Below, piece by piece: positions 10,263 through 62,572 of a stretch of DNA of 64,000 nucleotides. How positions within the stretch are numbered: the stretch's first letter is position 1; every line of letters begins with the position of its first letter. The notes beneath the pieces were generated by a model. The model made no database searches. It saw only the letters and a list, made by a program, of their open reading frames with translations, and was not told the origin of the DNA. Source of the DNA: Sulfurovaceae bacterium (lineage in GTDB: Bacteria; Campylobacterota; Campylobacteria; Campylobacterales; Sulfurovaceae); contig OZ223261.1 in the NCBI GenBank assembly GCA_965140575.1, positions 391,243 through 455,242 of the forward strand. The letters run 5' to 3'. The translations under genes and the position numbers were made by a program.

Positions 10263-10306
10263 AATGCCCCCTAAGTAAATATTGGATATAATCCCTCTTC
10301 TAAAAT

Positions 10307-10383: not shown

Positions 10384-10437
10384 CTCGGATTAATCAAAAA
10401 TATACTACAATAGTACAAATGAAACGGAGTTTGTACA

Positions 10438-20536: not shown

Positions 20537-20683
20537 AACAATCAAAAATGATTAACAACATTAAGAGAGCTTTTGGATTCTTATCTTTGAAGAATTGTAT
20601 TATAGCTAAACAAAACTTTACTGAAAATAAAGTATAATCCCCCTAGCATAGGAAGATAATTCCAAACAAAAAGGGAGAGCCAT

Positions 20684-20923
20684 ATGAAGCTTAAGCTAGC
20701 GAGAACAACACTCAAAGCGAAACCAAAAGTCGTAGATTTGAAAACTATAGAAGAAGAACTGGAAAATACATCAATATTTTATTTTGACAAAGAAAATTCA
20801 CACAAAGACCTCAAAGATGCCATAGAACACTTTGAAGAAAAAGGCTATAGCGTCTATCTTAGAGAGGTAAAATATGGACTTGATGAAGGGGAGTTTATAT
20901 ACGAAGTTCACATCATCCAATAA
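20684..20923 (+). CDS. small hypothetical protein
   Basis: 79-aa ORF with GGGAGAG RBS-like sequence upstream, immediately before miaB. No motif recognised. Confidence 0.5.
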   Translation: MKLKLARTTLKAKPKVVDLKTIEEELENTSIFYFDKENSHKDLKDAIEHFEEKGYSVYLREVKYGLDEGEFIYEVHIIQ

Positions 20924-20926
20924 CTT

Positions 20927-44721: not shown

Positions 44722-46110
44722 TTAATATTTATAACTTACGGAAAATCTGAGATCTTGTGCTGTGATATCGGTCTCTTGCACAGGAACCCAACCGGCACAA
44801 TTTACATTTGGCGTATAGTCATGTTGCATATAGGTATATCGAACCTGTGCAGGAAGGTATTCTTCACCAAAGAGATAAAAGTTCCAATAGGCCTCATATG
44901 CATCACCACGCACAGCAATCTTGGATCCGATAGCTGAATCTTCAGCCCATGTCATCGGTGTCCAATATTTTGATCCATGATTATATTCAATCCCTATCTT
45001 TCCTTTTTCTGTGATCATATCAGGGAAGATAACCCCTGCCCAGATAGAGCTTCCGCTTCTTGTACCACCATCGCTTGAGCCTAAAAGTTGGTACCCGTTG
45101 TCTGCATCATAGTAACTATATGCTGCAGATATAAACGCTGTTGTATTTGCCCAAAAACCATCAATCTCATTTCCAATTCCATCAATTTTGAATCCAAGCG
45201 AGAGAAGATCAGCTGTTCCTGCACCTACTTTTTTCTCAGTTGTCGCGATATTTTCACCTTTTGTGTCGAAGATATGTGCCCACTCATACATGACTCGATA
45301 TTGACCATTATTATAAGCATCACCAAGTGTCACAAAAAAGTCAACATTGTCATCTTCAGATCCATCTACCTTAGCATTTGGACCCCAAGGTGTCGTATAG
45401 CCGATGCTGTAAACACCTGTTGTAGCACCCGTATGTGCACGACCTCCTACAAATTTTGTATACGCGCCCGGAATAAATCTACTCCAATCTAGTTTAACCA
45501 TGAGAGCATTGACTTCCATATTGGTGATATGTGCTAGAGGTGATCCCTCTTCAGGATTGTTCTCTCTATAGTTTGCCAAGAAACCGTCTGTTGAAGGGCG
45601 ACGACCGATAGAGACACTGATAGGCTGTGCTCCAAGGGCTGTTGAGTAGACAAAGTATGCCTCTTTAACTCTCATCACCGTATCGGTTGCTTTAGAGCTT
45701 GCCGACCAATCTTTAAGCCCTCCATCCTCACCAAAAAGGTGCGCGCCCCAAAGTGAATAGATAGCAAGCTTTCCTTTAAAAATTAACTTATCCGTAGGCG
45801 CAGCTGCCATTGTGAGGTACAATCTACTCGCAAGTAATGATGAATTTTCTGCACTCTCGCCTGTTATATTGTTTTTATAATCCAAAACATCAACGGAGTT
45901 TCTAAAATCTACTCCAAACTTGATATTGTCAAACGAATCATGTTTTTTGACCTCAATAATCGTTTTTTTATTGCTTTTGATCTTTTTTTGATTGCCGTAA
46001 ACCATCTCTTCTAGAACTCTGATTCTCTCTTCGAGCTCAGCATTAGTCGCAGCATTTGTTGCTGAAATTACTGATGCTACCATGAGGGACATTACTACAA
46101 ATCTTTTCAT
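44722..46110 (-). CDS. outer-membrane beta-barrel protein with N-terminal coiled-coil (tentatively DUF3373-like putative porin)
   Basis: Signal peptide MKRFVVMSLMVASVISATNA. ELEERIRVLEEMV heptad region. Aromatic-rich alternating strands. Ends RFSVSYKY. Confidence 0.75.
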   Translation of the reverse strand: MKRFVVMSLMVASVISATNAATNAELEERIRVLEEMVYGNQKKIKSNKKTIIEVKKHDSFDNIKFGVDFRNSVDVLDYKNNITGESAENSSLLASRLYLTMAAAPTDKLIFKGKLAIYSLWGAHLFGEDGGLKDWSASSKATDTVMRVKEAYFVYSTALGAQPISVSIGRRPSTDGFLANYRENNPEEGSPLAHITNMEVNALMVKLDWSRFIPGAYTKFVGGRAHTGATTGVYSIGYTTPWGPNAKVDGSEDDNVDFFVTLGDAYNNGQYRVMYEWAHIFDTKGENIATTEKKVGAGTADLLSLGFKIDGIGNEIDGFWANTTAFISAAYSYYDADNGYQLLGSSDGGTRSGSSIWAGVIFPDMITEKGKIGIEYNHGSKYWTPMTWAEDSAIGSKIAVRGDAYEAYWNFYLFGEEYLPAQVRYTYMQHDYTPNVNCAGWVPVQETDITAQDLRFSVSYKY

Positions 46111-46242
46111 TACTACTCTCCTAAAAAAACGAAAGTATAACCAATGAAAACTTAAATATATTAACTTTAATTTATAATTATGTTAATACATTATTATAAA
46201 TATTATGCGAGATATAGCAACAAAATAAGGCTGTTTAACGCA

Positions 46243-46680
46243 TTATTGATTTGTAATGTGCATATATTTTGAGATAAATTCTTCCGGAATCTTTTGCGGG
46301 CGGTATGTCTCTATCTCCACAAAAACCCAATTGGTCCACCCCTCACATATAATCTTGCCCTTTTTAACATTGAGAAGTTCGTATTGACGGATTGACTGCG
46401 CTTTTTTGACACTCTGCACCCAAGTATTTAAGAGAAGTTCATCGCCTAGTAAAGCACTCTGTTTATAGGCTATATTGTGCTCTCTTGCAACCCATGTGCG
46501 ATTAAATTTTTTCAGTGCATCAAATCCCAAGCCCAAAAAGTCGGAGTGCGCTACAGCGATATCGATAAACCATTCGAGATATCGGATATTACCAACATGG
46601 CCATTGACATCAATATCCTCTTTTTGAACGATAATCTTTTTTGTAAATTTTTCTCTATTTCCCGATGCATCATTATTCAC
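46243..46680 (-). CDS. hotdog-fold acyl-CoA thioesterase (4HBT/YbgC-like)
   Basis: 145 aa. DIDVNGHVGNIRYLEWF pattern typical of 4HBT thioesterases. Confidence 0.8.
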   Translation of the reverse strand: MNNDASGNREKFTKKIIVQKEDIDVNGHVGNIRYLEWFIDIAVAHSDFLGLGFDALKKFNRTWVAREHNIAYKQSALLGDELLLNTWVQSVKKAQSIRQYELLNVKKGKIICEGWTNWVFVEIETYRPQKIPEEFISKYMHITNQ

Positions 46681-46892
46681 TATAGTGCCGCCTTACTAGT
46701 AAAATGGAGTTGGTGTTTCTCTTTATAAAGCACCGTTAAAACAAGAGGTATATTCTAACCTTCTATCTTAAAAGTTTCCTTGAGGAAAAATTACTTTTTG
46801 ATTTTTGCTCAATTAACATAAATGTTAGAATACTCCTTGTATAATGAACAGATTTTTTACAATGCAATAAAGCAACTAAGGGAGCTTACTCT

Positions 46893-48722
46893 ATGAAGCA
46901 AACATTGATGGGGAATGACGCGATAGCGTGGGGGCTTATCCATGCAAATGTTGATATGGTCTCCGGCTATCCCGGCACACCTTCCAGTGAGATATTAACG
47001 ACTGTTCAAAAGATAAAAAAACAACTCGATCTTCCTATGTATGCACAATGGGCAACAAATGAAAAAGTAGGATTTGAAGTAGCATACGCCGGAGCTATCA
47101 CAGGCAAAAGAACCTGCGCCACCATGAAACAAGTGGGGCTCAATGTAGCTAGTGACGCGCTTATGAGTGCAAGCTATATAGGCAATCTAGGAGGTATGCT
47201 TCTTGTCTGTGCGGATGATCCGGGCTTTCACTCTTCACAGACAGAACAAGACTCACGCGTCTTTGCAAAATTTGCACGCATTCCCGTACTAGACCCTGCA
47301 ACGCCTCAAGATGCTTACGACTTTACTAAGCTTGGCGTGGAGCTTTCCGAACATTTTCAAATACCGGTGATGCTTAGACCGGTGATGCGCGTCTCGCATG
47401 CTAGAGAGATTATCGAGATGGATGATGAGACAAACTACCAACCAAAAGAAGGTAAATTCCAAAGAGATATCCCAAGATGGGGGGCAGTTCCTAGAAACGA
47501 TAGATATCTCCAAGGTATAGAACAACTCAAAAGAGTAGAGGCGATCAAAGCATACAACTGGGAGCATTTCTTAAAAGAGCAGTTTGAAAAATGCCAAGGC
47601 AAGGAGCTACTCATCATAGCAAGCGGTACGGGGTATGGATATGCCAAAGAGACACTCAGCGAATGCGGAGTAGAGGCCGATATCATCAAGGTTATCATGC
47701 CTTATCCTCTACCGCAAGATCAGATCAAAGAGTACACGCAACAGTATAACAAAGTACTTGTCATCGAAGAGACTTATCCCTGCATAGAAGAGCAGATAGC
47801 TACCAAAAAACTCTTTGGAAAAAATACCGATACCACGCAGCAGATAGATGAGATGAGCAAGGCTGAGATATTGAAATCACTGCAAAAATTAGAGATTTAT
47901 AGAGGTGAAAACATCTATGAGGCACTCGAAATCTCCGAGGAGTATCCTCTCCCAAAAGTTGAAGCGAGACCGCCTGCACTTTGTCCGGGATGCCCACACA
48001 GAGACCTCTTTTTTGCCATCACTAAAGTATTTAAAAAGAAAAAAGCCATCTACCCTTCTGACATAGGATGCTACACGCTTGGACTTGCACAAGGCGCGAT
48101 AGATAGTCTTCTTTGTATGGGCGGTTCTGTTTCGATGGCAAGCGGTTATTCGATCGCTGACCCTGAAAAAACAGTCGTTGCCACCATAGGCGATAGTACA
48201 TTTTTCCACAGTGGTATTCCACCGCTTATTAATGCGGTTTACCAAAATCATAAATTTATACTTGTCATTATGGACAACTCAACGACCGCGATGACCGGCA
48301 GACAAACAACCGCAGAGAGAGAGCATAAAGATATCGATATCAAAAAGGTTGTTGAGGGGTGTGGGATAGCGTGCCATGAGTATTTTTATACCAATGAGCT
48401 AAGTAAAACAATCGATTTCTTTAAAGATATCAAAAAAGTTTACGAGCAAGCAGATGGTCCTGTCGTTGTAGTTGCGAGAGAATTTTGTGTGCTTGATAAA
48501 GAGCGCTCAAAAGAGTTTTTACCCTCTTTGAGTGTTATGGTCGATGAAGAAAAGTGCGTGGCATGTGATCTTTGTGTAAGCTCCTATAAATGTCCGCCTA
48601 TGGCTTACAATGCAAACGGCAAAGTCGAGATAGACCCTTTCTTGTGTATCGGCTGTGGCTCGTGTCTTGATGCACTTTGTCCGACAGATGCATTTGTAAA
48701 AATAGACAAAGGGGACAAATAG
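46893..48722 (+). CDS. iorA: indolepyruvate:ferredoxin oxidoreductase alpha subunit
   Basis: 609 aa. N-terminal GNDAIAWG...GYPGTPSSE, TPP-binding GDSTFFHSG, C-terminal 2x4Fe-4S CVACDLC...CIGCGSCLDALCP. Confidence 0.88.
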   Translation: MKQTLMGNDAIAWGLIHANVDMVSGYPGTPSSEILTTVQKIKKQLDLPMYAQWATNEKVGFEVAYAGAITGKRTCATMKQVGLNVASDALMSASYIGNLGGMLLVCADDPGFHSSQTEQDSRVFAKFARIPVLDPATPQDAYDFTKLGVELSEHFQIPVMLRPVMRVSHAREIIEMDDETNYQPKEGKFQRDIPRWGAVPRNDRYLQGIEQLKRVEAIKAYNWEHFLKEQFEKCQGKELLIIASGTGYGYAKETLSECGVEADIIKVIMPYPLPQDQIKEYTQQYNKVLVIEETYPCIEEQIATKKLFGKNTDTTQQIDEMSKAEILKSLQKLEIYRGENIYEALEISEEYPLPKVEARPPALCPGCPHRDLFFAITKVFKKKKAIYPSDIGCYTLGLAQGAIDSLLCMGGSVSMASGYSIADPEKTVVATIGDSTFFHSGIPPLINAVYQNHKFILVIMDNSTTAMTGRQTTAEREHKDIDIKKVVEGCGIACHEYFYTNELSKTIDFFKDIKKVYEQADGPVVVVAREFCVLDKERSKEFLPSLSVMVDEEKCVACDLCVSSYKCPPMAYNANGKVEIDPFLCIGCGSCLDALCPTDAFVKIDKGDK

Positions 48723-52749: not shown

Positions 52750-53047
52750 TTGATTCTCCTTTTCGATATAAAATGAAGTTTACAAAGTTTTAAAATCATA
52801 GTGTAGATTCTAAAAAGTAAGGTATTTGCACAAGCACAATCTACCACTCTCATTTCATGTTGTGCAAAAAATATTGTCACATTTTACCATATTTGTATCA
52901 TAACCCATTCGAAAATGATATCAACATTATCTGACGCCATTATAAGATTATTATAAATCTTTGAGAGAAACCCCGAAACTATCCACAGTCTAAAAAATTG
53001 GATAAAAAAAGATACAATAACATCAAAACTATTTTAGGATTGTGCGG

Positions 53048-54931: not shown

Positions 54932-55069
54932 GACTATTTCTTACTTTACACCTCTGTTGATGGTGTGATAAAACTGCTGTTATGCATGGTCTTTTAAGCA
55001 CTCTTCCTTTGTACAGTTAAAGTATAGGAAACCCATAGCATAGGATAAACTAATTTGGTATCGGCTTTA

Positions 55070-55080
55070 CCTGACCCCTT
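55070..55080. repeat. boundary motif copy CCTGACCCCTT (left arm of IR bracketing the 77-aa ORF)
   Basis: Perfect reverse complement of 55448-55458. Confidence 0.6.
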
Positions 55081-55092
55081 CACTTCAAATGT

Positions 55093-55113
55093 GTCCCCTA
55101 TATTCTCTATATT
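55093..55113. repeat. boundary motif copy GTCCCCTATATTCTCTATATT (left arm of long-range IR)
   Basis: Reverse complement matches 56851-56870 (AATATAGAAATATAGGGGTC) with one indel and one mismatch. Confidence 0.55.
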
Positions 55114-55151
55114 CCTTATTTTTTAGCAAAAAAGAGTTTCGGTCACTTTGG

Positions 55152-55184
55152 ACAGGACACCAGCAGGAAGTCCTGTTTTATTTC
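55152..55184 (+). terminator. rho-independent terminator (plus-strand sense), insulating the island from fadD-like read-through
   Basis: ACAGGAC-11 nt loop-GTCCTGT followed by TTTTATTT. Overlaps the stop of the convergent 77-aa ORF. Confidence 0.5.
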
Positions 55185-55411
55185 TTAAACTTATTCCAAG
55201 GTCTATCTTTACTTGAAGTCCATCTTAAGTAAGGCACAACAAGATAAAAACCAAAGAAAATAAAAAAAGAAACAAGGGAAAAAGCCAATCCTCTGTAGGC
55301 ACCTTCGTTAAGGTAACTTTGCGGGATTATGGTAATCAAAATTCCTATCAGAATTAATATTATGCCTATTTTCATGTTTTTTTTCATTTTTGCTTCATCG
55401 ACATTACTCAT
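55178..55411 (-). CDS. island ORF A: small 2-TM membrane protein
   Basis: 77 aa. AAGGA RBS 8 nt upstream. Two hydrophobic helices (IGIILILIGILITII, AFSLVSFFIFFGFYLVV). Confidence 0.6.
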   Translation of the reverse strand: MSNVDEAKMKKNMKIGIILILIGILITIIPQSYLNEGAYRGLAFSLVSFFIFFGFYLVVPYLRWTSSKDRPWNKFKK

Positions 55412-55445
55412 TTATATTTCCTTGCTTTATATATCAGGTCTAAGC

Positions 55446-55985
55446 CTAAGGGGTCAGGAATAAACCTACACTAAGAATGATATAGAAAATACCAAATATG
55501 ATAGTTGCTATACCGATTTTAAAAGCTTTTTTACCTCTAAAATAGTTATGAGAAGATATAACTCTCGTTTTATGAGTATCAAGATTATTATGATGTAAAC
55601 CACCACCTAAAGTATATGTACCTTTTGTGAAATAATAATTAGTTCTTATCTTTCTTTTTATGATGCCATTTTTATAACCATTATAAATATCTTTAAGACC
55701 GAAAAATAAAAAATAAATGGAAATAATCTTTATTAAATGTATATTGGTCTCTTCATACGGTCTATTGATGTATATAAGATAAATGAACAATATAAGAATA
55801 AAAGTACAAAATAAATCAAATATTGCATTGCATATTGCTGCGCCTTTATAGTGATATGGTCCTGACACTCCTCCTCTCGGAAATGGCATTTTTTTTACAA
55901 TTAAACCTTGCATAGAAGCAAAATATAATTTTTTGATAATTATACTTAAAACAACAAACATGGCTATAAATATTATAAATTTCAT
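55446..55985 (-). CDS. island ORF B: 4-TM membrane protein
   Basis: 179 aa. GGAAGG RBS. Four hydrophobic segments. No motif recognised. Confidence 0.6.
   Translation of the reverse strand: MKFIIFIAMFVVLSIIIKKLYFASMQGLIVKKMPFPRGGVSGPYHYKGAAICNAIFDLFCTFILILFIYLIYINRPYEETNIHLIKIISIYFLFFGLKDIYNGYKNGIIKRKIRTNYYFTKGTYTLGGGLHHNNLDTHKTRVISSHNYFRGKKAFKIGIATIIFGIFYIILSVGLFLTP
55448..55458. repeat. boundary motif copy AAGGGGTCAGG (right arm of IR bracketing ORF A)
   Basis: Perfect reverse complement of 55070-55080. Overlaps the last codons and stop of ORF B. Confidence 0.6.
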
Positions 55986-56020
55986 TTGCCTTCCTTATTA
56001 ATGTTGTTTCTCTCGTTTTC

Positions 56021-56119
56021 CTCTCGCTCCCACGCTGTGCGCGAGAATGCATACTTTAGTATTTTATCATATTTACTGCAGGTCGATATGCTCTTAGAGA
56101 AACGGCATTGGCATCGCCT
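56021..56119. repeat. island intergenic repeat, copy R1
   Basis: Aligns with 57246-57358 and 59804-59876. Shared ...TCCCAC.CTGTGCGC...ATTTTATCATATTTACTGCAGGTCGATATGC... core. Confidence 0.8.
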
Positions 56120-56131
56120 CCATTCATATAG

Positions 56132-56153
56132 GCTATCACTATCACCTGACACC
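56132..56153. repeat. 22-bp inverted repeat, left arm (GCTATCACTATCACCTGACACC)
   Basis: Perfect reverse complement of 56553-56574 and 56754-56775. Overlaps the stop codon of ORF C. Confidence 0.85.
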
Positions 56154-56507
56154 TATATTTAATGGTACAGACCTACATGCCGGTCTATCTTTACTCCCTT
56201 GAAGACAACTTGATGCAGACTTGCCATCGATTCCTCTTGGATAATATTTGTATCCTTTTTTGAGCATACAATAATCATGATGGGCTGTTCTCTTTTTGTC
56301 TAAATTGACATTTCCAAGAGGATATATTTTGATTGCACTACGCATACAAAAATCTAGATCTTGTAATTTTTCATCTTTGGACACATTATTTTTATCCCAA
56401 GATTCAATAGTACCTGCTGTATTACCAACAAAATCTCTCTCAATTCCTGCACAAGCCATTAATAAAATTATGCAGCCTGTGTAACCCATGATTTTGAATA
56501 TTTTCAT
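56142..56507 (-). CDS. island ORF C: small lipoprotein, bracketed by 22-bp perfect IRs
   Basis: ATG 56507 follows GGAGGA. MKIFKIMGYTGCIILLMAC lipobox LMAC. Six further Cys in the mature part. Confidence 0.65.
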   Translation of the reverse strand: MKIFKIMGYTGCIILLMACAGIERDFVGNTAGTIESWDKNNVSKDEKLQDLDFCMRSAIKIYPLGNVNLDKKRTAHHDYCMLKKGYKYYPRGIDGKSASSCLQGSKDRPACRSVPLNIGVR

Positions 56508-56546
56508 TATTGTCCTCCATTGATGACATAAAGACATAAAGGTGTC

Positions 56547-56648
56547 AATAAAGGTGTCAGGTGATAGTGATAGCACATTATTTTCCTTTTGTTCTTTTTA
56601 TAATATTATTTATAGTTGGTTGTGCCAATTTAAGTATTTTAGCCATCG
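56547..56648. repeat. 102-bp direct repeat, copy 1
   Basis: Identical to 56748-56849 except one mismatch (T/C at 56620/56821). Includes the 22-bp IR arm and an HTH-coding tail. Confidence 0.85.
56553..56574. repeat. 22-bp inverted repeat, right arm copy 1 (GGTGTCAGGTGATAGTGATAGC)
   Basis: Verified codon-by-codon against the track translation MLSLSPDTFIDT of 56142..56576. Confidence 0.85.
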
Positions 56649-56757
56649 TATGTTGAGAATAGCCTTGCTCATAACACTCTACTATGAACTTATTTCTTTC
56701 TTTGATATCTTTTGAATTTAAAAGTATTTTTCTTAAAATAAAGGCAAAATAAAGGTG
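56578..56757 (-). pseudogene. truncated helix-turn-helix remnant (serine-recombinase C-terminal HTH or IS630-type transposase HTH)
   Basis: Own translation of the open frame: ...LRKILLNSKDIKERNKFIVECYEQGYSQHTMAKILKLAQPTINNIIKRTKGK*. Only the last 22 codons follow an ATG. The upstream side is closed by a stop inside the repeat. Confidence 0.5.
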
Positions 56758-56849
56758 TCAGGTGATAGTGATAGCACATTATTTTCCTTTTGTTCTTTTT
56801 ATAATATTATTTATAGTTGGCTGTGCCAATTTAAGTATTTTAGCCATCG
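56748..56849. repeat. 102-bp direct repeat, copy 2
   Basis: See copy 1. Carries a second MAKILKLAQPTINNIIKRTKGK* tail (56779-56847, minus strand). Confidence 0.85.
56754..56775. repeat. 22-bp inverted repeat, right arm copy 2
   Basis: Identical to 56553-56574. Confidence 0.85.
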
Positions 56850-56850
56850 A

Positions 56851-56870
56851 AATATAGAAATATAGGGGTC
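56851..56870. repeat. boundary motif copy AATATAGAAATATAGGGGTC (right arm of long-range IR)
   Basis: Inverted match to 55093-55113. Confidence 0.55.
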
Positions 56871-56896
56871 TATTGTGTTTTTAATAAATACTTCTT

Positions 56897-57163
56897 TTAC
56901 TCATTATTTTCTGGTAATTCTTCCTCGTATGGATTTCTAACACTATCAATAAATTTTCTATCTTTAGCGCCAAAATCCAAATAATTTTTTCTAGCTTCCG
57001 ATAAAGACATTTTATTTGCTCCACCAACATATTTATCGGGTCTATCGTGTGCAACTTCATCATATTGCCAATGACAAACACTACAAATATCAGTAATTAC
57101 TTCTAATCCAAGTTCATTATTGATTGTATAATTACCACAACATGGGCATTTTATCTTCTTCAT
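56897..57163 (-). CDS. island ORF D: CPCC-family cysteine-rich protein
   Basis: MKKIKCPCCGNYT...CSVCHWQYD. AGGAGG RBS 6-8 nt upstream of ATG 57163. Confidence 0.7.
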   Translation of the reverse strand: MKKIKCPCCGNYTINNELGLEVITDICSVCHWQYDEVAHDRPDKYVGGANKMSLSEARKNYLDFGAKDRKFIDSVRNPYEEELPENNE

Positions 57164-57245
57164 TAAGTACACCTCCTATTTTGTTCCATGTTTTGCTATT
57201 TGACCCAACCAATAATCAATTCCTGTATCTGGCTTGAAGTATGTT

Positions 57246-57358
57246 CCTCTCATTCCCACACTGTGCGCAGAAATACATATTTCAACATTTTATCATATTT
57301 ACTGCAGGTCGATATGCCCTCAGAGGAATGGCATTGACATCACCTAGCTCCTATATTT
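57246..57358. repeat. island intergenic repeat, copy R2 (ends in boundary motif CATCACCTAGCTCCTATATTT)
   Basis: Aligns with R1 and R3 over the core and with R1 over the GGCATTG.CATC.CCT...CTATATTT tail. Confidence 0.8.
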
Positions 57359-57376
57359 GCTACATCCAGTCATGCC

Positions 57377-58135
57377 CTACTTCGCCCACTTGTCCTCTTC
57401 TTTAAGAATATTTTTAACAAATTCGCAGGTGTAGTGTCTTGTATTATCTTGCGTACTTTGAAGTGTGCATTTTGAGAGTGTCCACTTTTTACCTTGCCAC
57501 ACCATGCCCGTCATACCACCATCTCTATATAGTCTCTTATCAAAATCTAGCAACTTTATCTCTTCATCTCCAAGAGCATAAGATGTTGCACTGTTTCCAA
57601 TATAAATCTTTTTTAAAATGTAGATAGTCTTTGCTTTAAAATATTTCCTTTTATCATCATTCCGAAGCATGTTTATATCTTTTAGATTAAATGCGACAGC
57701 CTCATTTGACCTTAGTTTGATATAATCAATTCCTATGCTTGCTTTATAATATCGACTATCTTCGATATTATTAATTATTATAGGGGGAGATATCACACAC
57801 AAACCAGGATTGTTTTCACAGCCATATAAATCATCGGAATATGTATGCTGTTTATCATCTCTCACGTAAATCACTGATGAACTTGTATAGTAGGGATTAC
57901 CCTTATAAACATAAAATGTTTTATTGCATTTATTAGTGTAAGAAGATTGTATATATACTTTATCAAAACCTGACATATAATCTTTTTCATATGTAAGTCC
58001 CACTATTCTGTCTTGAAGTTTTTCTTCTCCACACTTCACATCTTCAATAGATGGCGTTTTAGTGCAACCATACCCTATCAAAAATACTTGCACTAGTAAA
58101 ATAAACTTTAATGCTGTATGTATGTTTAGTTTCAT
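57377..58135 (-). CDS. island ORF E: 252-aa probable lipoprotein/secreted protein
   Basis: Signal-like ALKFILLVQVFLIGYGC. AAGGA RBS. ATG overlaps the stop of ORF F (TAATG). Confidence 0.65.
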   Translation of the reverse strand: MKLNIHTALKFILLVQVFLIGYGCTKTPSIEDVKCGEEKLQDRIVGLTYEKDYMSGFDKVYIQSSYTNKCNKTFYVYKGNPYYTSSSVIYVRDDKQHTYSDDLYGCENNPGLCVISPPIIINNIEDSRYYKASIGIDYIKLRSNEAVAFNLKDINMLRNDDKRKYFKAKTIYILKKIYIGNSATSYALGDEEIKLLDFDKRLYRDGGMTGMVWQGKKWTLSKCTLQSTQDNTRHYTCEFVKNILKEEDKWAK

Positions 58136-58494
58136 TACTGTTTTCCTTGTTGTGCCTCTGCCAATTCTTCCGGATATTTTTTATAATACTCTTTTACATC
58201 TATCGTATCCGCATCTTTACAATGTGGGCATTTGCCATTTATAGTATCTTTATAATCAAATACCTCTTTACATTTGGGGCATTTGGTTGTTAGAGGTTTT
58301 ATGTATCTTTTATATTCCTTAACTACACTCATCAATAATAATCCGCCCAAAACTATCAAAACTATACCAACAGGAATATACAAATAAAATTGACTAAAAT
58401 CTACATAGCCACCTCTCCCAGTAAATTTTTGAACAACAATAACCTTTAACCCCAATCCTATTAAAACCAAACCTAATATTATTTTTCTAATCAT
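58135..58494 (-). CDS. island ORF F: 2-TM protein with C-terminal zinc ribbon
   Basis: 119 aa. Two TM helices, then CPKCKEVF...GKCPHCKD. Confidence 0.6.
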   Translation of the reverse strand: MIRKIILGLVLIGLGLKVIVVQKFTGRGGYVDFSQFYLYIPVGIVLIVLGGLLLMSVVKEYKRYIKPLTTKCPKCKEVFDYKDTINGKCPHCKDADTIDVKEYYKKYPEELAEAQQGKQ

Positions 58495-58610
58495 TTGCTA
58501 TCATTTGATTGAGATATATCTTCACTATTTTCCCCTCCATAATCATATGGTTTTACCGCAAGTTTTTGCTCCTCAGGAGTTAAACTATTATAGAGATTAT
58601 AGCGTGTCAT
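58491..58610 (-). CDS. possible 39-aa micro-ORF translationally coupled to ORF F
   Basis: Own translation MTRYNLYNSLTPEEQKLAVKPYDYGGENSEDISQSNDSK*. Its TGA overlaps the ATG of ORF F (ATGA). No clear RBS. Confidence 0.25.
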   Translation of the reverse strand: MTRYNLYNSLTPEEQKLAVKPYDYGGENSEDISQSNDSK

Positions 58611-58623
58611 TTCAGCATAGGCT

Positions 58624-59154
58624 TCATTTTTTATTTGCTTCATTATCAGTAAGCTGAATATCTGACCAAGATGATGTTATGGTTTTCTTTGTAAATCTAG
58701 TGTTTGCTCCTCCAACCCCACCTCCTATCCTCATATCTCCCCAACGACAATTAGTAGGAATGTCATCTTTGTGTCTAAACATTATTTCACCATTTTGATA
58801 ATATTCATTCTTTATTGGATGTAACGGAAAGGTATCAATATATACGGCTTCATACTCAGATAAAAATTTCTCTTTCCCTTCATTAAGAACTTTTATTATA
58901 TCACCACAAAAATAAGTAACATACACAATGACATTAGTATCTCTTTTGTTATTAACTTCAAATGATATATTTGCAATTTTAGACGATTTATAGTAAGAAA
59001 TGTCTGTAAGCTTTACTTCCACATCATGTCTAATTTTTTGCATTTCTAAAGATTCTATATTGTTTGGTCCATACTCATAATGATGCGAGCATCCTGCAAA
59101 TAATAAAATCAAGACAAATAAGCGAAGTCTTTTATAAATAATAATTATTTTCAT
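58624..59154 (-). CDS. island ORF G: lipoprotein (paralog of ORF H)
   Basis: LILLFAGCSHH lipobox. Its N-terminal 70 aa align with ORF H. Confidence 0.65.
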   Translation of the reverse strand: MKIIIIYKRLRLFVLILLFAGCSHHYEYGPNNIESLEMQKIRHDVEVKLTDISYYKSSKIANISFEVNNKRDTNVIVYVTYFCGDIIKVLNEGKEKFLSEYEAVYIDTFPLHPIKNEYYQNGEIMFRHKDDIPTNCRWGDMRIGGGVGGANTRFTKKTITSSWSDIQLTDNEANKK

Positions 59155-59205
59155 ATTAGTATTTTATCCTTTTGTTTAAATCGTATTCTCTACGCAAAGC
59201 GTTTT

Positions 59206-59760
59206 TTATGGATCAATAAAATCTCCGGTATAAGGATAATCCACATCACTTTTATAGTTTTTATCTTTTTTATATGGAAAATCTAGTGGAATATTGACAG
59301 TTTCAATCAGTTTTTTACCAGGATCAACATAAAGTGGCATAGTAATTCTCTCGGTAAAATCCTCTACACATAAACTACGGACATGATTTAAAAAACCGTT
59401 CTCATCTCTCTGCATGATGTTTACTCTTCCAAGATAATATAATGCTTCGTATTTGTAAGTTTTTATCTGACTGTGCCTTTCTATCGGCAAACATAATATA
59501 ACACCATATACACCGATAGTCTCTTGTGTTTTATTGGTGACTTCGTATGTTACTTCAGCCATATGGTGTAATTTTATATCCTTTGTTTTTATGATCTTTA
59601 CTTCCACATTTTGCTCTATTTTTTCAATTTCTGCATTCTCTTTGTTTGGCAAATAATAACTTGGATTATTTTCACTGCATCCGAATAAAAGCAAAGAGAA
59701 AAATACTGTTATCCATAAGTTATGGAAGGAATTATTTATTTTCAAATCTTGGGGTTTCAT
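59206..59760 (-). CDS. island ORF H: lipoprotein (paralog of ORF G)
   Basis: ATG 59760 (MKPQDL...) lies 6 nt after AAAGGA. SLLLFGCSENN lipobox. The track's longer N-terminus is translated repeat R3. Confidence 0.65.
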   Translation of the reverse strand: MKPQDLKINNSFHNLWITVFFSLLLFGCSENNPSYYLPNKENAEIEKIEQNVEVKIIKTKDIKLHHMAEVTYEVTNKTQETIGVYGVILCLPIERHSQIKTYKYEALYYLGRVNIMQRDENGFLNHVRSLCVEDFTERITMPLYVDPGKKLIETVNIPLDFPYKKDKNYKSDVDYPYTGDFIDP

Positions 59761-59803
59761 AACTTGTCCTTTGGTTAAGATTGTGTTCAGTGCGTAAAGC
59801 ATT

Positions 59804-59876
59804 TTCTCTCGTTCCCATACTCTGCGTGGGAATGCATATTTCAACATTTTATCATATTTACTACAGATCGATATAT
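59804..59876. repeat. island intergenic repeat, copy R3
   Basis: TTCTCTCGTTCCCATACTCTGCGTGGGAATGCATATTTCAACATTTTATCATATTTACTACAGATCGATAT aligns with the R1/R2 core. Lacks their boundary-motif tail. Confidence 0.8.
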
Positions 59877-59938
59877 ACCCTTAAATGATGGGCGCAAAGA
59901 GTCGGATTTTGATTCCTATCTCCATCTTTCCAATCAAA

Positions 59939-60280
59939 CTATATACTATCCGTATCTTGAATATCCACAGAAGAGATTTTTGACATCTTCTCTTCAACTT
60001 TCTCAAAAAAACTATTTTGTGCTTCCTCATCCATATTTTCACTAATCATATCTAAAATGTAAAATATCCCATTTGCGTTGATCTTTTTGACACTTGCTAG
60101 ATAGTGGACAAAAGCTATCTGCTTGATATCATCGATAGAATAAAGTTTCTTTTTTATGGAGTCTTTTTTAGGTAGCAACAATCGATCTTCATACATCTTA
60201 AGTGTTCTGCTTTTCGCGCCCAATAGTTCAGCAACAGCCGAGAGAGGAAGTATATCTTTAGAGTTGTCTAAAAGAGCCAA
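59939..60280 (-). CDS. MerR/HspR-like HTH transcriptional regulator, divergent from ectABC
   Basis: 113 aa. LSAVAELLGAKSRTLKMYEDRLLLP...LYSIDDIKQIAFV matches the MerR-type HTH + wing pattern. TTG start. Confidence 0.7.
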   Translation of the reverse strand: MALLDNSKDILPLSAVAELLGAKSRTLKMYEDRLLLPKKDSIKKKLYSIDDIKQIAFVHYLASVKKINANGIFYILDMISENMDEEAQNSFFEKVEEKMSKISSVDIQDTDSI

Positions 60281-60339
60281 TAGCTCTCCTTTATTTGTAA
60301 GGTTACATAATTATATCTAATATTAATTTAATGTTACTA

Positions 60340-60378
60340 TGTTATACTCGACACAATTTGTGTTAAATTATGACACAA
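60340..60378 (+). promoter_or_regulatory. putative ectA promoter (TGtTATACT) with overlapping palindromic operator ACACAA-T-TTGTGT plus third half-site GACACAA
   Basis: Extended -10 at 60340-60348. Palindrome at 60351-60363. Half-site at 60372-60378. AAAGGA RBS before ATG 60404. Confidence 0.4.
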
Positions 60379-60403
60379 AAATCGTAATAATTTAAAGGAT
60401 AAT

Positions 60404-60916
60404 ATGTTTTTTAATAACATTAATATTGTAAATCCAACCAAGGAAGATTCAAAAGGAATCTACGAACTTATCAAGCGATCAAAACCGCTAGATCTTAACT
60501 CTGAGTATCTCTACTTGCTACAAACAGTCTATTTTGAAGGAACATGTATAGCAGCAAAACATGAAGATAAAATCATCGGTTTTGTCTCAGGCTTCAAAGC
60601 ACCAAAAGATGATAAAACATTTTTTGTATGGCAGGTCGCCGTAGACAAAGAGTATAGAGGACAAAATATCGCCTTTAGGATGCTCAAGACTCTTTTTGAT
60701 TCTAAACCACTTGAAGATATAGAGTCGATAGAAACGACTATATCACCATCAAATATCGCCTCTCAAAGAGTTTTCGAAAAATTTGCAAATGAGATGGATT
60801 TTGATAAAGAGATATCTCTCTTTGCTGCGAAGGATGATTTTTCTGACAGCCATGAAGATGAACTTTTATATCTACTAAAACCAAAAGTAAAAAAGGATAC
60901 ACATGAGAATATTTGA
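60404..60916 (+). CDS. ectA: L-2,4-diaminobutyrate acetyltransferase
   Basis: 170 aa GNAT. LDLNSEYLYLLQ...TCIAA...GFVSGF...FFVWQVAVDKEYRGQNIAFRML matches the EctA pattern. Confidence 0.88.
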   Translation: MFFNNINIVNPTKEDSKGIYELIKRSKPLDLNSEYLYLLQTVYFEGTCIAAKHEDKIIGFVSGFKAPKDDKTFFVWQVAVDKEYRGQNIAFRMLKTLFDSKPLEDIESIETTISPSNIASQRVFEKFANEMDFDKEISLFAAKDDFSDSHEDELLYLLKPKVKKDTHENI

Positions 60917-62180
60917 GACATACGAATCAGTCGTAAGAGGATATATAAGAAGCTTCCCGACTATTTTTGAAAAAGCAAAAGGCTCTTACCTCATCGATGA
61001 GCAAGGAAATGAATATATAGATTTCTTTGCAGGTGCAGGTACACTCAATTATGGACACAACAACCCAAAAGCAAGCAAAGCACTCATAGAGTATCTCCAA
61101 AATGACGGGATTGTTCATGGTTTAGATATGGCAACGACTGCAAAAAAAGCATTTATGGAGAAATTTGTCACGACGATCCTTGAGCCTAGAAATATGGAGT
61201 ATAAGCTTCAATTTACAGGACCCACAGGAACCAATGCGGTCGAAACGGCACTGAAACTTGCACGACTCGTCAAGGGACGATCCAATATCGTCTCTTTTAC
61301 CAACGGATATCATGGACTCTCGCAGGGTGCACTCTCTGTTACGGGCAATAATTTCTACAGAGATGAATCCCACATCAGCCGCTCCAATGTAACCTTTATG
61401 CCCTATGATAACTTCTTAGGAGAAGATGTAGATTCGCTCAAAGTTTTTAGAAAATACTTAGAAGATGGTAGCAGTGGACTTGATACGCCTGCTGCTGTTA
61501 TCCTAGAGACAGTGCAAGGAGAAGGCGGTATCAATGTCGCTTCAAAAGAGTGGCTTCAAGGCGTTGAATCGCTTTGTCGCGAATTTGATATGCTGCTCAT
61601 CATAGATGATATACAAGTAGGTAACGGCCGAACAGGTGATTTTTTCTCATTTGAATTTGCCAATCTTAACCCGGATATCATAACGCTGAGCAAATCCATA
61701 GGGGGTGGTTTACCTATGGCGTTAGTGCTTTTCCGTCCTGAGCTTGATCAGTGGAAGCCGGGGGAACACACAGGAACCTTTAGAGGGAACAATCTTGCCT
61801 TTGTCGCTTCGACACAACTGCTTGATTATTGGGATAACGATGATCTCTCAAAAGCGGTCTTTTATAAAGAAGAGATACTCAAAACGAAGCTTGAAGCAAT
61901 AGCTAAAAAATACAGTGATTGGGGCATGAAGGTTAAAGGGCGAGGACTCGTCTATGGGCTTGAAATTGCCAGTGAACATAGTGTTGCTTCTGATATCTCT
62001 GCAAAAGCTTTTGAAAACGGACTTATCATCGAAACATGCGGTTCAAGTTCACATGTTGTCAAATTTCTTCCACCGCTTACCGTCGATGAAGAGACACTCA
62101 TAGCCGGACTTGAACTTTTTGAGAAATCGGTTGATGCAGTCATGAAAGAGAAAAAAGATAGATTAACAGAAGGATTTTAA
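60903..62180 (+). CDS. ectB: diaminobutyrate--2-oxoglutarate transaminase
   Basis: 425 aa. FETYESVVRGYIRSFP...IDFFAGAGTLNYGHNNP and the PLP lysine region LSKSIGG. Confidence 0.9.
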   Translation: MRIFETYESVVRGYIRSFPTIFEKAKGSYLIDEQGNEYIDFFAGAGTLNYGHNNPKASKALIEYLQNDGIVHGLDMATTAKKAFMEKFVTTILEPRNMEYKLQFTGPTGTNAVETALKLARLVKGRSNIVSFTNGYHGLSQGALSVTGNNFYRDESHISRSNVTFMPYDNFLGEDVDSLKVFRKYLEDGSSGLDTPAAVILETVQGEGGINVASKEWLQGVESLCREFDMLLIIDDIQVGNGRTGDFFSFEFANLNPDIITLSKSIGGGLPMALVLFRPELDQWKPGEHTGTFRGNNLAFVASTQLLDYWDNDDLSKAVFYKEEILKTKLEAIAKKYSDWGMKVKGRGLVYGLEIASEHSVASDISAKAFENGLIIETCGSSSHVVKFLPPLTVDEETLIAGLELFEKSVDAVMKEKKDRLTEGF

Positions 62181-62572
62181 TGATAGTACGAGACATAAAA
62201 GATATCATAGGAAGCGAAAAAGAGGTACACGCCAAAGAGGGTCAATGGGTGAGCAGACGCATGTTGCTCAAAAGTGACAATATGGGATTTTCTTTTCATG
62301 AAACGATCATAAAAGCAGGAAGCAAAACACATATCCACTACAAAAATCACTTAGAAGCCGTCTATTGTGTTGCGGGAAACGGCAAGATAGAAGATCTCAA
62401 AACAGGGGAAGTACATCCGATATATGATGGCATTATGTACGCACTAAACCTCCACGATGACCATAATCTCTACGGCGGTAGTGAAGATATGCGTCTTATC
62501 TGTGTCTTCAATCCGCCGATTAAGGGTACGGAAAATCATGATGAAAACGGTGTTTACCCTTTAGAGAATTGA
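62180..62572 (+). CDS. ectC: L-ectoine synthase
   Basis: 130 aa cupin. MIVRDIKDI...FSFHETII.AGS.THIHYKNHLEAVYCV.G.G. Confidence 0.9.
   Translation: MIVRDIKDIIGSEKEVHAKEGQWVSRRMLLKSDNMGFSFHETIIKAGSKTHIHYKNHLEAVYCVAGNGKIEDLKTGEVHPIYDGIMYALNLHDDHNLYGGSEDMRLICVFNPPIKGTENHDENGVYPLEN

What the first reader, a model, noticed from the sequence alone, without database searches (positions are those of the whole stretch)
54932..59938. AT-rich accessory island of small envelope-targeted ORFs punctuated by repeats: candidate cassette / orphan-immunity-type array
About ten short ORFs lie between the fadD-like gene and the MerR-like/ectABC block, all on the minus strand. None has a recognisable enzymatic domain. 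They are a 2-TM 77-aa protein, a 4-TM 179-aa protein, three lipoproteins with canonical lipoboxes (LMAC, FAGC, LFGC) plus one probable lipoprotein with a non-canonical GYGC site (ORF E), a 2-TM protein with a CxxC..CxxC zinc ribbon, a CPCC cysteine-rich protein and a possible 39-aa micro-ORF. By eye the stretch is clearly more AT-rich than the flanking housekeeping DNA. It contains three unrelated repeat systems and a truncated recombinase/transposase-type HTH (reported separately). Same-strand small exported genes, intergenic repeats and recombinase debris recall integron cassette arrays. They also recall recombinase-associated arrays of orphan immunity genes, where periplasmic lipoproteins neutralise exported toxins, and phage-derived exclusion genes. 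I do not recognise this repeat/motif set from any described system. The functional reading is inference only.
Basis: partly seen in the sequence, partly recalled or inferred. Interest (0 to 1): 0.75.

Follow-up and report, generated by a model that had tools for sequence, protein, structure and literature searches.

The report
Strain-specific islet of orphan immunity genes
A 5-kb AT-rich insertion, absent from the closest relatives, strings together small membrane and lipoprotein genes whose relatives elsewhere sit directly behind contact-dependent toxin genes, so it is most likely a stock of "antidote" genes against neighbours' toxins, assembled around the debris of a REP-type transposase.

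Summary
Window 54933-59939 is a 5,007-nt block with GC 0.318 against 0.400 elsewhere. It carries nine co-oriented small ORFs: three clear lipoproteins, one probable lipoprotein, three membrane proteins, a CPCC protein and a 50-aa ORF. Three conspecific metagenome contigs (97% nt identity) have 10 nt at this site, between the fadD-like and MerR-like stop codons.

The orphan-immunity reading is supported for four protein families.
- ORF C is 85% identical to a gene that overlaps the stop of a 2,141-aa CdiA-like protein in at least 10 contigs. Its paralogues follow orphan copies of the same toxin C-terminus.
- ORF F relatives follow a conserved toxin C-terminal domain, once in a DUF637/TNT orphan array.
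- An F-E pair recurs next to an orphan cdiA fragment.
- An I/H relative follows an M91/XopG-like peptidase gene.

The "recombinase debris" and most of the repeats belong to one system. They are fragments of a REP-associated tyrosine transposase (RAYT) gene, its flanking inverted repeats, and a covarying hairpin inside a ~110-nt element that precedes each of three gene blocks.

Integron and phage readings are not supported. This is a new member of a known kind (polyimmunity or orphan-immunity locus) in a Campylobacterota genome. The RAYT link is the only unusual aspect. Function is inferred, not tested.

The parts
54933..59939 (-). Whole accessory islet (5,007 nt), replaced by 10 nt (GTAAATATTT) in conspecific contigs
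   Evidence: blastn of L005-L007 against the window gives two collinear blocks ending at 54932 and restarting at 59940. GC is 0.318 against 0.400.
54941..55079 (-). Decayed left inverted repeat, upstream region and first ~25 codons of a RAYT gene, truncated at the island edge
   Evidence: 74% identical to L013 9181-9325. Alignment with the L013 and L032 RAYT 5' regions.
55178..55411 (-). ORF A, 77 aa, 2 TM; candidate membrane immunity protein (no context evidence)
   Evidence: Weak YesK-like hit below the Pfam cut-off. The only relative found is a ≥90%-identical JGI sequence (P0252) in the same 90% cluster.
55446..55985 (-). ORF B, 179 aa, 3-4 TM; candidate membrane immunity protein (no context evidence)
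   Evidence: Distant homologues P0174 and P0219 (38-39%), with an uninformative context in L031.
56006..56119 (-). D1 copy R1: extended -10-like box TGATAAAAT plus H-box hairpin (56015-56063), 75 nt upstream of ORF B
56132..56160 (-). RAYT left-type inverted repeat (AAATATAGGTGTCAGGTGATAGTGATAGC); overlaps the 3' end of ORF C
   Evidence: Matches the left flank of the intact RAYT in L032.
56142..56510 (-). ORF C, 122-aa lipoprotein (LMAC): orphan CdiI-type immunity gene
   Evidence: 88% nt / 85% aa identical to P0248, which overlaps the stop of a 2,141-aa TPS/Fil_haemagg_2 protein in L013-L022. Paralogues follow orphan copies of the same CT.
56511..56524 (-). Scar of the cdiA 3' end (SD region), retained upstream of ORF C
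   Evidence: The blastn alignment with L013 starts 16 nt upstream of the start codon, inside the last codons of cdiA.
56547..56735 (-). D2a: RAYT right-type inverted repeat (56547-56574) plus the last ~52 codons of the RAYT gene (C-terminal HTH)
   Evidence: 93.7% identical to L032 1417-1605 and 87-92% to L013. Translation.
56748..56849 (-). D2b: second copy, inverted repeat plus the last ~22 RAYT codons (201-nt tandem duplication)
   Evidence: 100% identical to L032 1504-1605.
56897..57163 (-). ORF D, 88-aa CPCC cysteine-rich protein (cytoplasmic)
   Evidence: PF14206, E = 5.1e-26. SD TAGGAGG.
57232..57358 (-). D1 copy R2, with a degenerate left-type repeat at its 5' end and H-box at 57241-57289; upstream of ORF D
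57377..58135 (-). ORF E, 252 aa, Cys-rich exported or lipoprotein-like
   Evidence: Its 63% homologue P0124 in L012 is preceded by an F-like 3' end. It is followed by an orphan cdiA fragment and an H-box.
58135..58494 (-). ORF F, 119 aa, 2 TM plus CxxC..CxxC ribbon: immunity-type protein
   Evidence: About 90 representative homologues. P0133 follows a DUF637-linked 193-aa CT in L029. P0131 follows a CT whose last 37 residues are 65% identical to it, in L112.
58491..58643 (-). ORF G, 50 aa, soluble, translationally coupled to F (ATGA overlap); status uncertain
   Evidence: P0201 shares 79% identity over 33 aa.
58624..59154 (-). ORF H, 176-aa lipoprotein (FAGC), paralogue of I
   Evidence: 31% identical to I. 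Family alignment with three invariant Cys including the lipobox Cys. Beta-sandwich model, pLDDT 68.
59206..59760 (-). ORF I, 184-aa lipoprotein (LFGC)
   Evidence: Homologue P0218 (27%) starts 2 nt after a Peptidase_M91/XopG-like gene in L030.
59791..59904 (-). D1 copy R3 (H-box 59800-59848), at the island's right edge, ~78 nt upstream of ORF I

Best explanation
The islet is a heterogeneous polyimmunity (orphan immunity) locus. It is a strain-specific, horizontally acquired set of envelope-located immunity genes with no linked toxin. These genes would protect the cell against toxins delivered by neighbours through contact-dependent (CdiA/TpsA-type), Rhs-type or similar systems.

**Proposed working (inferred)**
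- The lipoproteins C, H, I and probably E would bind periplasm-acting toxin domains.
- The membrane proteins F, A and B would block membrane-targeting toxin domains.
- The genes form three co-oriented blocks: I-H-G-F-E, D-(debris)-C and B-A.
- Each block is preceded by a copy of a ~110-nt element carrying an extended -10-type promoter box and a conserved 5' hairpin. This element plausibly supplies transcription.

**Assembly (inferred)**
The blocks were joined by recombination at sequences belonging to a REP-associated tyrosine transposase (RAYT). Three fragments of that gene and its flanking inverted repeats mark the junctions.

**Shown versus inferred**
- Shown: presence/absence polymorphism, homology and gene order of relatives, the RAYT origin of the debris, and hairpin covariation.
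- Inferred: immunity function, promoter activity, and any role of the RAYT in assembly.
For: **Accessory status**
- Absent from three 97%-identical contigs, with a clean 10-nt empty site.
- GC is about 6 sd below the rest of the window.

**ORF C**
- 85% aa identical to P0248, which in at least 10 contigs overlaps the stop of a 2,141-aa TPS + Fil_haemagg_2 protein preceded by a ShlB/POTRA transporter.
- The window keeps 16 nt of the cdiA 3' end upstream of C.
- Paralogues at 58% and 45% identity each follow orphan fragments 83% and 77% identical to the same CdiA C-terminus. Toxin CT and immunity therefore travel as pairs.

**ORF F**
- The homologue in L029 follows a DUF637 ORF plus a 193-aa CT, inside an array of DUF637-TNT/immunity modules.
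- The homologue in L112 follows a CT whose last 37 residues are 65% identical to that one.

**ORF E and ORFs I/H**
- The F-E pair is conserved in L012 and followed by a cdiA fragment (55% over 31 aa to CdiA 1581-1611).
- The I homologue starts 2 nt after a Peptidase_M91/XopG-like gene.

**Match to published polyimmunity-locus features**
- No intervening toxin gene, same orientation, small gaps, and strain-to-strain variation.

**RAYT debris**
- Fragments are 94-100% identical to an intact RAYT in L032. The best family is NCBIfam REP_Tyr_transpos at 77-80 bits.
- Related RAYT copies sit just after the immunity genes of CdiA and Rhs loci (L013-15, L032, L035, L046, L054).

**D1 element**
- The hairpin shows 91% of cells paired and 4 of 9 pairs with compensatory changes. 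Slid controls give 35-56%.
- Within the window it occurs only in the islet.
- TGnTAwAAT boxes lie 5-41 nt upstream of several core genes.
Against: - No toxin or secretion system is visible in the 64-kb window. Whether this genome or its neighbours encode the cognate toxins is unknown.
- No immunity function was tested.
- A, B, D and G have no contextual evidence at all. None of the ORFs hits a Pfam Imm family.
- The I/H link rests on one homologue at 27% identity, and the E link on one 1.2-kb contig.
- The H model has no significant PDB match, and the E model is unusable.
- The RAYT is present only as fragments. Most related RAYT copies lie next to housekeeping genes, so the association may be incidental.
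- D1's promoter role is a consensus match only. In other loci the hairpin occurs in either orientation relative to neighbouring genes.
- Insertion in this strain cannot be distinguished from deletion in the relatives.
Confidence: 0.65

Rival explanations
1. Inert wreckage. The islet is a decaying leftover of the orphan region of a CDI/Rhs locus, moved or left here by recombination. Its genes are no longer expressed or useful.
For: - Three RAYT fragments, a tandem duplication of debris and a cdiA scar show repeated illegitimate recombination.
- No cognate toxin is in view.
- ORF C has lost its native last codons to an inverted repeat.
Against: - All nine ORFs are intact, most with good SD sequences and coupled starts.
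- C keeps 85% identity over 116 of 121 residues with no frameshift.
- Each block keeps a copy of the same promoter-like element.
- Orphan immunity genes are known to be functional in other systems.
Confidence: 0.15
2. Envelope or surface-variation genes unrelated to toxins. The islet is a strain-specific set of lipoproteins and membrane proteins for adhesion, phage-receptor masking or niche adaptation.
For: - Most products are envelope-targeted.
- A, B, D and G have no toxin-linked context.
- The H fold is a generic beta-sandwich.
Against: - Four of the families have relatives in or beside toxin loci, three of them in the immunity position right behind toxin genes.
- There are no adhesin-like repeats or known surface-protein domains.
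Confidence: 0.1
3. Phage- or plasmid-derived moron or superinfection-exclusion cluster.
For: - Low GC and small membrane proteins.
- CPCC matches a PHROG of unknown function (7.9e-11), and there is a weak holin-like hit for A (E 0.023).
Against: - No DNA match to 50,697 phage or 72,556 plasmid records.
- No viral-contig relative of F.
- No phage structural, integrase or att features in the flanks.
Confidence: 0.04
4. Integron-like cassette array whose attC sites are the D1 repeats.
For: Co-oriented small ORFs with a repeated ~110-nt element between blocks.
Against: - No IntI or any tyrosine recombinase lies within the collinear ±10 kb.
- D1 precedes blocks of 2-5 genes rather than following each ORF.
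- Folding of the whole unit is no better than shuffles in 5 of 6 strand/copy combinations.
- Its only conserved structure is a 9-bp hairpin that also occurs next to RAYT genes.
Confidence: 0.03

Closest known systems
Heterogeneous polyimmunity loci (Zhang et al. 2012, Biol Direct 7:18; read)
   Same: - Tandem, co-oriented, closely spaced genes of unrelated immunity-type families with no toxin gene in between.
- Content differs between strains of one species.
- Recombinase genes are often adjacent.
- Proposed role is pre-emptive defence against non-kin toxins.
   Different: - None of the ORFs matches a named Imm family.
- Nearly all products are envelope-targeted, whereas most catalogued immunity proteins are cytoplasmic.
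- The adjacent recombinase debris is an HUH/Y1 RAYT rather than XerC/D.
- The host is a Campylobacterota (Sulfurovaceae-like) environmental bacterium.
Recombinase-associated acquired interbacterial defence clusters, rAID-1 (Ross et al. 2019; preprint 10.1101/471110)
   Same: - Low-GC arrays of co-directional orphan immunity homologues.
- Repetitive intergenic sequences.
- A structure suggestive of gene acquisition.
   Different: [quoted passage not shown] No such gene is present here.
- The immunity genes here relate to CdiA/TPS-type toxins and other toxins, not to Bacteroidales T6SS.
Orphan cdiA-CT/cdiI modules downstream of cdiBAI loci (Poole et al. 2011, PLoS Genet; from my own knowledge)
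   Same: - ORF C and its paralogues belong to a family that follows a CdiA C-terminal domain, both in a full locus and in orphan CT fragments.
- Transposase remnants lie nearby.
   Different: - In the window the immunity genes have lost their CT fragments; only a 16-nt scar remains.
- They are not next to any cdiBA.
- Genes from several different toxin contexts are combined.
REP / RAYT systems (Nunvar et al. 2010; Bertels & Rainey 2011; Ton-Hoang et al. 2012; from my own knowledge)
   Same: - A Y1 HUH transposase best matched by NCBIfam REP_Tyr_transpos.
- It is single-gene, flanked by inverted repeats and multi-copy in metagenomes (at least 534 candidate stretches confirmed as relatives by tblastn).
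- A short conserved hairpin with a fixed 5' (G/A)TATGC flank lies nearby.
   Different: - This RAYT carries a C-terminal HTH.
- Its flanking repeats are not palindromes. They are tandem 12-mers plus tandem hexamers that differ between copies.
- A link between RAYTs and toxin-immunity loci is, to my knowledge, not described.
Integron cassette arrays
   Same: Co-oriented small, often exported ORFs with a repeated element at block boundaries, low GC and strain-specific content.
   Different: - No IntI, attI or Pc, and no attC-type imperfect palindrome after each ORF.
- The boundary element carries its own promoter-like box.

Membership tests
Heterogeneous polyimmunity locus (Zhang et al. 2012) | Four or more tandem genes of immunity-protein families | tested here: inconclusive
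   C, F and I/H have homologues in immunity position behind toxin genes, and E has one next to an orphan cdiA fragment. A, B, D and G have no evidence. No hit to Pfam Imm families. Function was not assayed.
Heterogeneous polyimmunity locus (Zhang et al. 2012) | Not interrupted by toxin genes or toxin cassettes | tested here: met
   No ORF in 54933-59939 matches a toxin domain. Only a 16-nt cdiA scar remains.
Heterogeneous polyimmunity locus (Zhang et al. 2012) | Same orientation, short intergenic distances | tested here: met
   All nine ORFs are on the minus strand. Within blocks there are overlaps or gaps of at most 52 nt. Between blocks lie 150-400 nt of repeat or debris.
Heterogeneous polyimmunity locus (Zhang et al. 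2012) | Content varies between strains of a species | tested here: met
   Absent from three contigs with 97% nt identity in the flanks.
rAID-1 (Ross et al. 2019) | 5' XerD-like tyrosine recombinase at least 44% identical to BF9343_RS08045 | tested here: not met
   The called genes of the collinear relatives show no integrase or recombinase within about 10 kb upstream or 4 kb downstream (to the window end) of the site. The only recombinase traces in the islet are RAYT (Y1 HUH) fragments. Identity to the Bacteroides protein itself was not computed.
rAID-1 (Ross et al. 2019) | Two or more co-directional downstream genes of low GC, with repetitive intergenic sequences | tested here: met
cdiBAI locus / orphan cdiA-CT-cdiI array | cdiI immediately downstream of cdiA or of a cdiA-CT fragment | tested here: not met
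   This holds for the homologues. In the window ORF C is preceded by a RAYT fragment and only 16 nt of cdiA. No ORF over 820 aa exists in the window.
REP/RAYT system | Intact Y1 (HUH) transposase gene flanked by inverted REP sequences | tested here: not met
   The window holds only three fragments (54941-55079, 56575-56735, 56776-56849). Intact flanked copies exist in L013 and L032.
REP/RAYT system | Short palindromic REP hairpin with conserved 5' tetranucleotide, many copies per genome | tested here: inconclusive
   The H-box hairpin covaries and has a fixed (G/A)TATGC 5' flank. There are 3 copies in the islet, 0 elsewhere in the 64 kb, and copies in about 10 of about 85 RAYT loci. Genome-wide copy number and cleavage by the RAYT were not testable.
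Integron | intI integrase plus attI and Pc adjacent to the array | tested here: not met
   The flanks are fadD-like, MerR-like and ectABC. No integrase appears in the annotated collinear contigs.
Integron | attC imperfect palindrome at the 3' end of each cassette | tested here: not met
   D1 occurs three times for nine ORFs, upstream of blocks. Whole-unit folding z-scores run from -0.4 to +0.5, except for one copy on one strand (-2.4).

The most novel reading that the evidence does not exclude
This RAYT family, with its C-terminal HTH, its copy-specific flanking repeats and the H-box hairpin, might actively capture and shuffle immunity genes. It would cut them away from the 3' ends of toxin genes and join them behind a portable promoter/hairpin unit. 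That would be an HUH-transposase counterpart of integrons or XerD-linked rAID arrays. It would give a domesticated REP transposase a role in building interbacterial defence loci.
Probability: 0.18. Interest if true: 0.7.

Novelty: new member of a known kind. Interest (0 to 1): 0.4.

Why it matters
Orphan and polyimmunity loci are thought to let bacteria survive toxins they do not make themselves. They have mainly been studied in gut Bacteroidales and enteric or pathogenic Proteobacteria.

This example shows the same strategy in an environmental Campylobacterota (Sulfurovaceae-like) genome, with these features:
- It uses previously unclassified lipoprotein and membrane immunity families.
- It supplies concrete, testable toxin-immunity pairings: the CdiA C-terminus with ORF C, and the glycine-zipper CT with ORF F.
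- It hints that REP-associated transposases congregate at, and may remodel, toxin-immunity loci.

If that last point holds, it would give RAYTs a function beyond REP maintenance.

Tried and rejected
- **Rfam.** Gathering thresholds on the whole window and E ≤ 5 on the islet gave only a distant tRNA and two noise hits.
- **Genome scan with the 21-mer D1 core.** The scan of 185,579 species genomes found four unrelated chance hits that do not extend beyond the seed.
- **Concatenated ORFs against the word-indexed 5.8-billion protein search.** This found nothing. It was an artefact of candidate selection, because the same concatenation found homologues for every ORF in the exhaustive representative search. 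The two capped searches were lost.
- **Exact look-ups.** The fadD (wrong start) and ORF H look-ups failed.
- **D1 as a copy of the RAYT promoter plus 5' coding region.** Alignment supports this only for the left-type repeat at its 5' end, not for the core. Rejected.
- **A conserved leader peptide (MLKYAF..WERE) in D1.** The ATG is present only in copy R3. Rejected.
- **Target-site duplication or att-like core at the island ends.** None was found. An 8-nt GTAAATAT shared by the empty site and D1, on opposite strands, is within chance.
- **PHROGs, PADLOC and NCBIfam on all ORFs.** Nothing informative.
- **Structure prediction.**
  - The H model (pLDDT 68) has no PDB match with E below 0.2.
  - The E model (pLDDT 35) is unusable.
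- **Literature full-text searches.** Searches for CPCC plus immunity and for the hairpin sequence found nothing relevant.
- **The B homologue context (L031).** Uninformative.

Full report

Yes. Between the stop of a 627-aa AMP-binding (fadD-like) gene and the stop of a MerR-family gene lie nine co-oriented minus-strand ORFs. I call them A to I, numbered from the fadD side.
- A: 55178-55411, 77 aa, two hydrophobic segments.
- B: 55446-55985, 179 aa, three to four hydrophobic segments.
- C: 56142-56510, 122 aa, lipobox LMAC.
- D: 56897-57163, 88 aa, Pfam Cys_rich_CPCC, E = 5e-26.
- E: 57377-58135, 252 aa, signal-like N-terminus with GYGC.
- F: 58135-58494, 119 aa, two TM plus CxxC..CxxC.
- G: 58491-58643, 50 aa.
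- H: 58624-59154, 176 aa, FAGC.
- I: 59206-59760, 184 aa, LFGC.

Seven ORFs have Shine-Dalgarno-like sequences, and G, F and E overlap their neighbours' ends.

Island GC is 0.318 against 0.400 for the rest of the window. Two hundred 5-kb windows outside it average 0.401 (sd 0.013, minimum 0.368). GC3 of island ORFs is 0.17-0.31.

The repeats are not chance. The D1 core and the 23-nt motif each have zero matches in 100 shuffles. No enzymatic or named family besides CPCC was found in Pfam, NCBIfam, PHROGs or PADLOC.

**2. It is a true accessory insertion.**

The fadD-like protein places the organism among Campylobacterota. The nearest named hits are Sulfurovaceae and Sulfurospirillum MAGs.

Three metagenome contigs carry a 99%-identical fadD and are collinear with the window at about 97% nt identity over 16 kb. 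In these, the fadD stop is followed by GTAAATATTT and then directly by the MerR stop. The indel is therefore exactly 54933-59939. No target-site duplication is visible.

More distant relatives (92% and 82% fadD identity) have entirely different neighbours. The collinear flanks contain only housekeeping genes and ectABC. No integrase is present.

**3. What the genes are related to.**

A concatenation of the ORFs was searched exhaustively against 1.84 billion representatives. It found relatives for every ORF, including the window's own genome, a 1,151,376-nt NCBI/ENA contig. Their genomic contexts are the key evidence.

- **ORF C.** It is 88% nt / 85% aa identical to P0248.
  - In at least ten contigs P0248 overlaps by 4 nt the stop of a 2,141-aa protein. 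That protein has TPS and Fil_haemagg_2 domains and is preceded by a ShlB/POTRA transporter. This is the cdiB-cdiA-cdiI arrangement.
  - Homology between the window and those loci begins 16 nt upstream of the start codon, inside the last codons of the toxin gene. ORF C therefore carries a scar of its former toxin partner.
  - Two more divergent paralogues (58% and 45% identity) each follow orphan fragments 83% and 77% identical to the same CdiA C-terminus. This is the classical pattern of cognate CT/immunity modules.
- **ORF F.** It belongs to a family of about 90 representatives.
  - One member (44%) follows a DUF637 (CdiA pretoxin) ORF plus a 193-aa C-terminal ORF, in an array of DUF637-TNT toxin/immunity modules separated by IS110 copies.
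  - Another member follows an ORF whose last 37 residues are 65% identical to the end of that 193-aa protein. This segment is a glycine-zipper-like GxIGGxxGNLYGW.
- **ORF E.** Its only relative (63%) is preceded by an F-like 3' end. It is followed by a fragment 55% identical to CdiA residues 1581-1611.
- **ORFs I and H.** They are paralogues (31%) in a small lipoprotein family with invariant cysteines. One member (27%) starts 2 nt after a Peptidase_M91/XopG-like gene.
- **A, B, D and G.** They have no informative context.

**4. What the repeats and the 'recombinase debris' are.**

The HTH fragment inside the 201-nt tandem duplication is the 3' end of a 256-aa gene. That gene encodes a Y1 HUH transposase domain and a C-terminal HTH. 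Its best family is NCBIfam REP-associated tyrosine transposase, at 77-80 bits against a cut-off of 80. IS200 scores 23-27 bits.

An intact copy in contig L032 is 93.7% identical to fragment D2a and 100% identical to D2b. Intact copies are flanked by inverted repeats:
- left, ..ATAGGGGTCAGGTGATAGTGATAGC;
- right, GCTATCACTATCACCTGACACCT.

In the window a right-type and a left-type copy bracket ORF C.

A third, decayed fragment forms the last 140 nt of the islet, at 54941-55079, and is cut off at the island boundary. It comprises the left repeat, the upstream region and the first ~25 codons.

The ~110-140-nt repeat D1 begins with a left-type repeat, clear in R1 and degenerate in R2. Its core then has an invariant TCGAYCTGYAGTAAATATGATAAAAT and a hairpin.

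The hairpin ('H-box': (G/A)TATGC-A-TTCCCACGC-loop-GCGTGGGAA-CGAG) recurs next to RAYT genes in other contigs.
- In an alignment of ten copies, 91% of cells pair and four of nine pairs show compensatory changes. Slid controls give 35-56%.
- A covariance model finds it three times in the islet and nowhere else convincingly in the window. It finds it in about ten RAYT loci plus L012, and in none of the empty-site contigs.
- Many pairs are G·U on the gene strand, so the structure is better on that strand.

The TGATAAAAT box matches an extended -10. Such boxes lie 5-41 nt upstream of several core genes in this window, and a similar box precedes the neighbouring methyltransferase gene.

Each D1 copy sits 75-115 nt upstream of the first gene of a block: R3 before I-H-G-F-E, R2 before D, and R1 before B-A. 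The D1, D2 and inverted-repeat systems are therefore facets of one RAYT/REP-type system.

**5. How general is the RAYT link?**

Eighty related RAYT loci were fetched, out of at least 534 candidate stretches confirmed as relatives by tblastn. Most lie next to ordinary genes such as rpoC, feoB, tamB and asparagine synthase.
- In three of 27 long loci the RAYT immediately follows an Rhs/YD-shell C-terminus plus a small membrane ORF (L035, L046, L054).
- The copies closest to the window's fragments (L013-15, L032) are in CDI loci. In L013-15 the RAYT lies three genes downstream of the cdiI homologue.
- In L015 the DNA after the RAYT's right repeat is read here, by eye and without a homology test, as another toxin 3' scar plus a lipoprotein gene. 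It ends with a D1-like hairpin.

This is suggestive enrichment, not proof of a mechanistic role.

**6. Most likely explanation.**

The islet is a heterogeneous polyimmunity/orphan-immunity locus. Of the features listed by Zhang et al., it meets three:
- no intervening toxins;
- co-orientation with short gaps;
- strain-specific content.

It resembles rAID-1 in low GC and repetitive intergenic sequences. It lacks the defining XerD-like recombinase, so it is not a member of that family.

I infer that the lipoproteins neutralise periplasm-acting toxin domains and the membrane proteins neutralise membrane-targeting ones. I also infer that D1 supplies promoters, and that recombination at RAYT-associated sequences joined modules taken from the 3' ends of toxin loci. 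Confidence is 0.65.

The main rival is that it is non-functional wreckage of such loci (0.15). Against this stand nine intact ORFs with translation signals.

A toxin-unrelated envelope role (0.10), a phage origin (0.04; no phage, plasmid or viral matches) and an integron (0.03; no IntI, no attC-like units) are less likely.

**7. Limits.**

- No function was tested.
- Four ORFs have no contextual support.
- The I/H and E links each rest on a single contig.
- Structure prediction added nothing.
- Insertion cannot be told apart from deletion.
- Only 64 kb of the genome could be inspected, so the presence of cognate toxins, intact RAYTs or further islets is unknown.

**8. Verdict.**

The kind of system is already known. 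What is new is the host lineage, the unclassified envelope immunity families, and the recurring association with a RAYT and its repeats. I score it as a new member of a known kind, with moderate interest (0.4). There is an 18% chance of the more novel reading, in which the RAYT system actively assembles immunity arrays.

Noticed in passing
L013 8618-8730, 9165-9200, 10030-10058; L032 715-753, 1578-1630: Each RAYT copy is flanked by inverted repeats. They are built from two tandem ~12-mers (..A(A/T)AGGGGTCA..) followed by two tandem hexamers. The hexamer differs between copies (TGATAG, TAATGC, CAATGA) but matches between the two flanks of the same copy. This suggests copy-specific recognition, possibly by the C-terminal HTH.
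   Followed up: partly
L035 1-2558; L046 2943-6768; L054 4467-6768: In three unrelated metagenome contigs the same RAYT family sits directly after an Rhs/YD-shell C-terminus and a small membrane ORF (a putative immunity gene). In L054 this orphan Rhs-CT module lies right after rpoC.
   Followed up: partly
window 59939-62572 and loci L008, L010: The MerR-like gene plus ectABC lies next to fadD only in the window and its 97%-identical relatives. Relatives with 92% and 82% fadD identity have other neighbours. merR and ectA have low GC (0.34). The ectoine block may itself be a recent acquisition.
   Followed up: no
protein P0135 (100 aa), same 1,151,376-nt contig as the window: A paralogue of ORF F (63% over 75 aa) is encoded elsewhere in the same genome. 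This suggests a second immunity or toxin locus outside the window.
   Followed up: no
L112 755-2502: Next to an F homologue lies a 312-aa protein with a lipase-like HSQGN motif, followed by a 275-aa lipoprotein. This looks like another toxin-immunity pair. The L013 CdiA C-terminus has a similar SSHSRGG motif, hinting at a lipase-type toxin for ORF C.
   Followed up: no
L029 1046-8351: An array of repeated DUF637-TNT (NAD-glycohydrolase-type) toxin plus 75-aa immunity modules is separated by identical-length IS110 transposase genes. The module containing the F homologue ends the array.
   Followed up: no
window 52847-52894: The region upstream of the core methyltransferase gene resembles the D1 promoter box (AAATATGGTAAAATGTGACAATAT; blastn E 0.033). 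This is consistent with a shared extended -10 promoter type rather than homology.
   Followed up: partly
window 6001-7000, 10001-11000, 20001-21000, 46001-47000: Other 1-kb patches have GC 0.33-0.36, one of them next to the tRNA gene at 10307-10380. They were not examined for further accessory DNA.
   Followed up: no
A concatenation of several short ORFs found nothing in the word-indexed protein search. It recovered identical or near-identical relatives (63-100%) for all eight ORFs in the exhaustive representative search. 'No hit' from the indexed tool with composite or low-complexity queries is not evidence of absence.
   Followed up: yes
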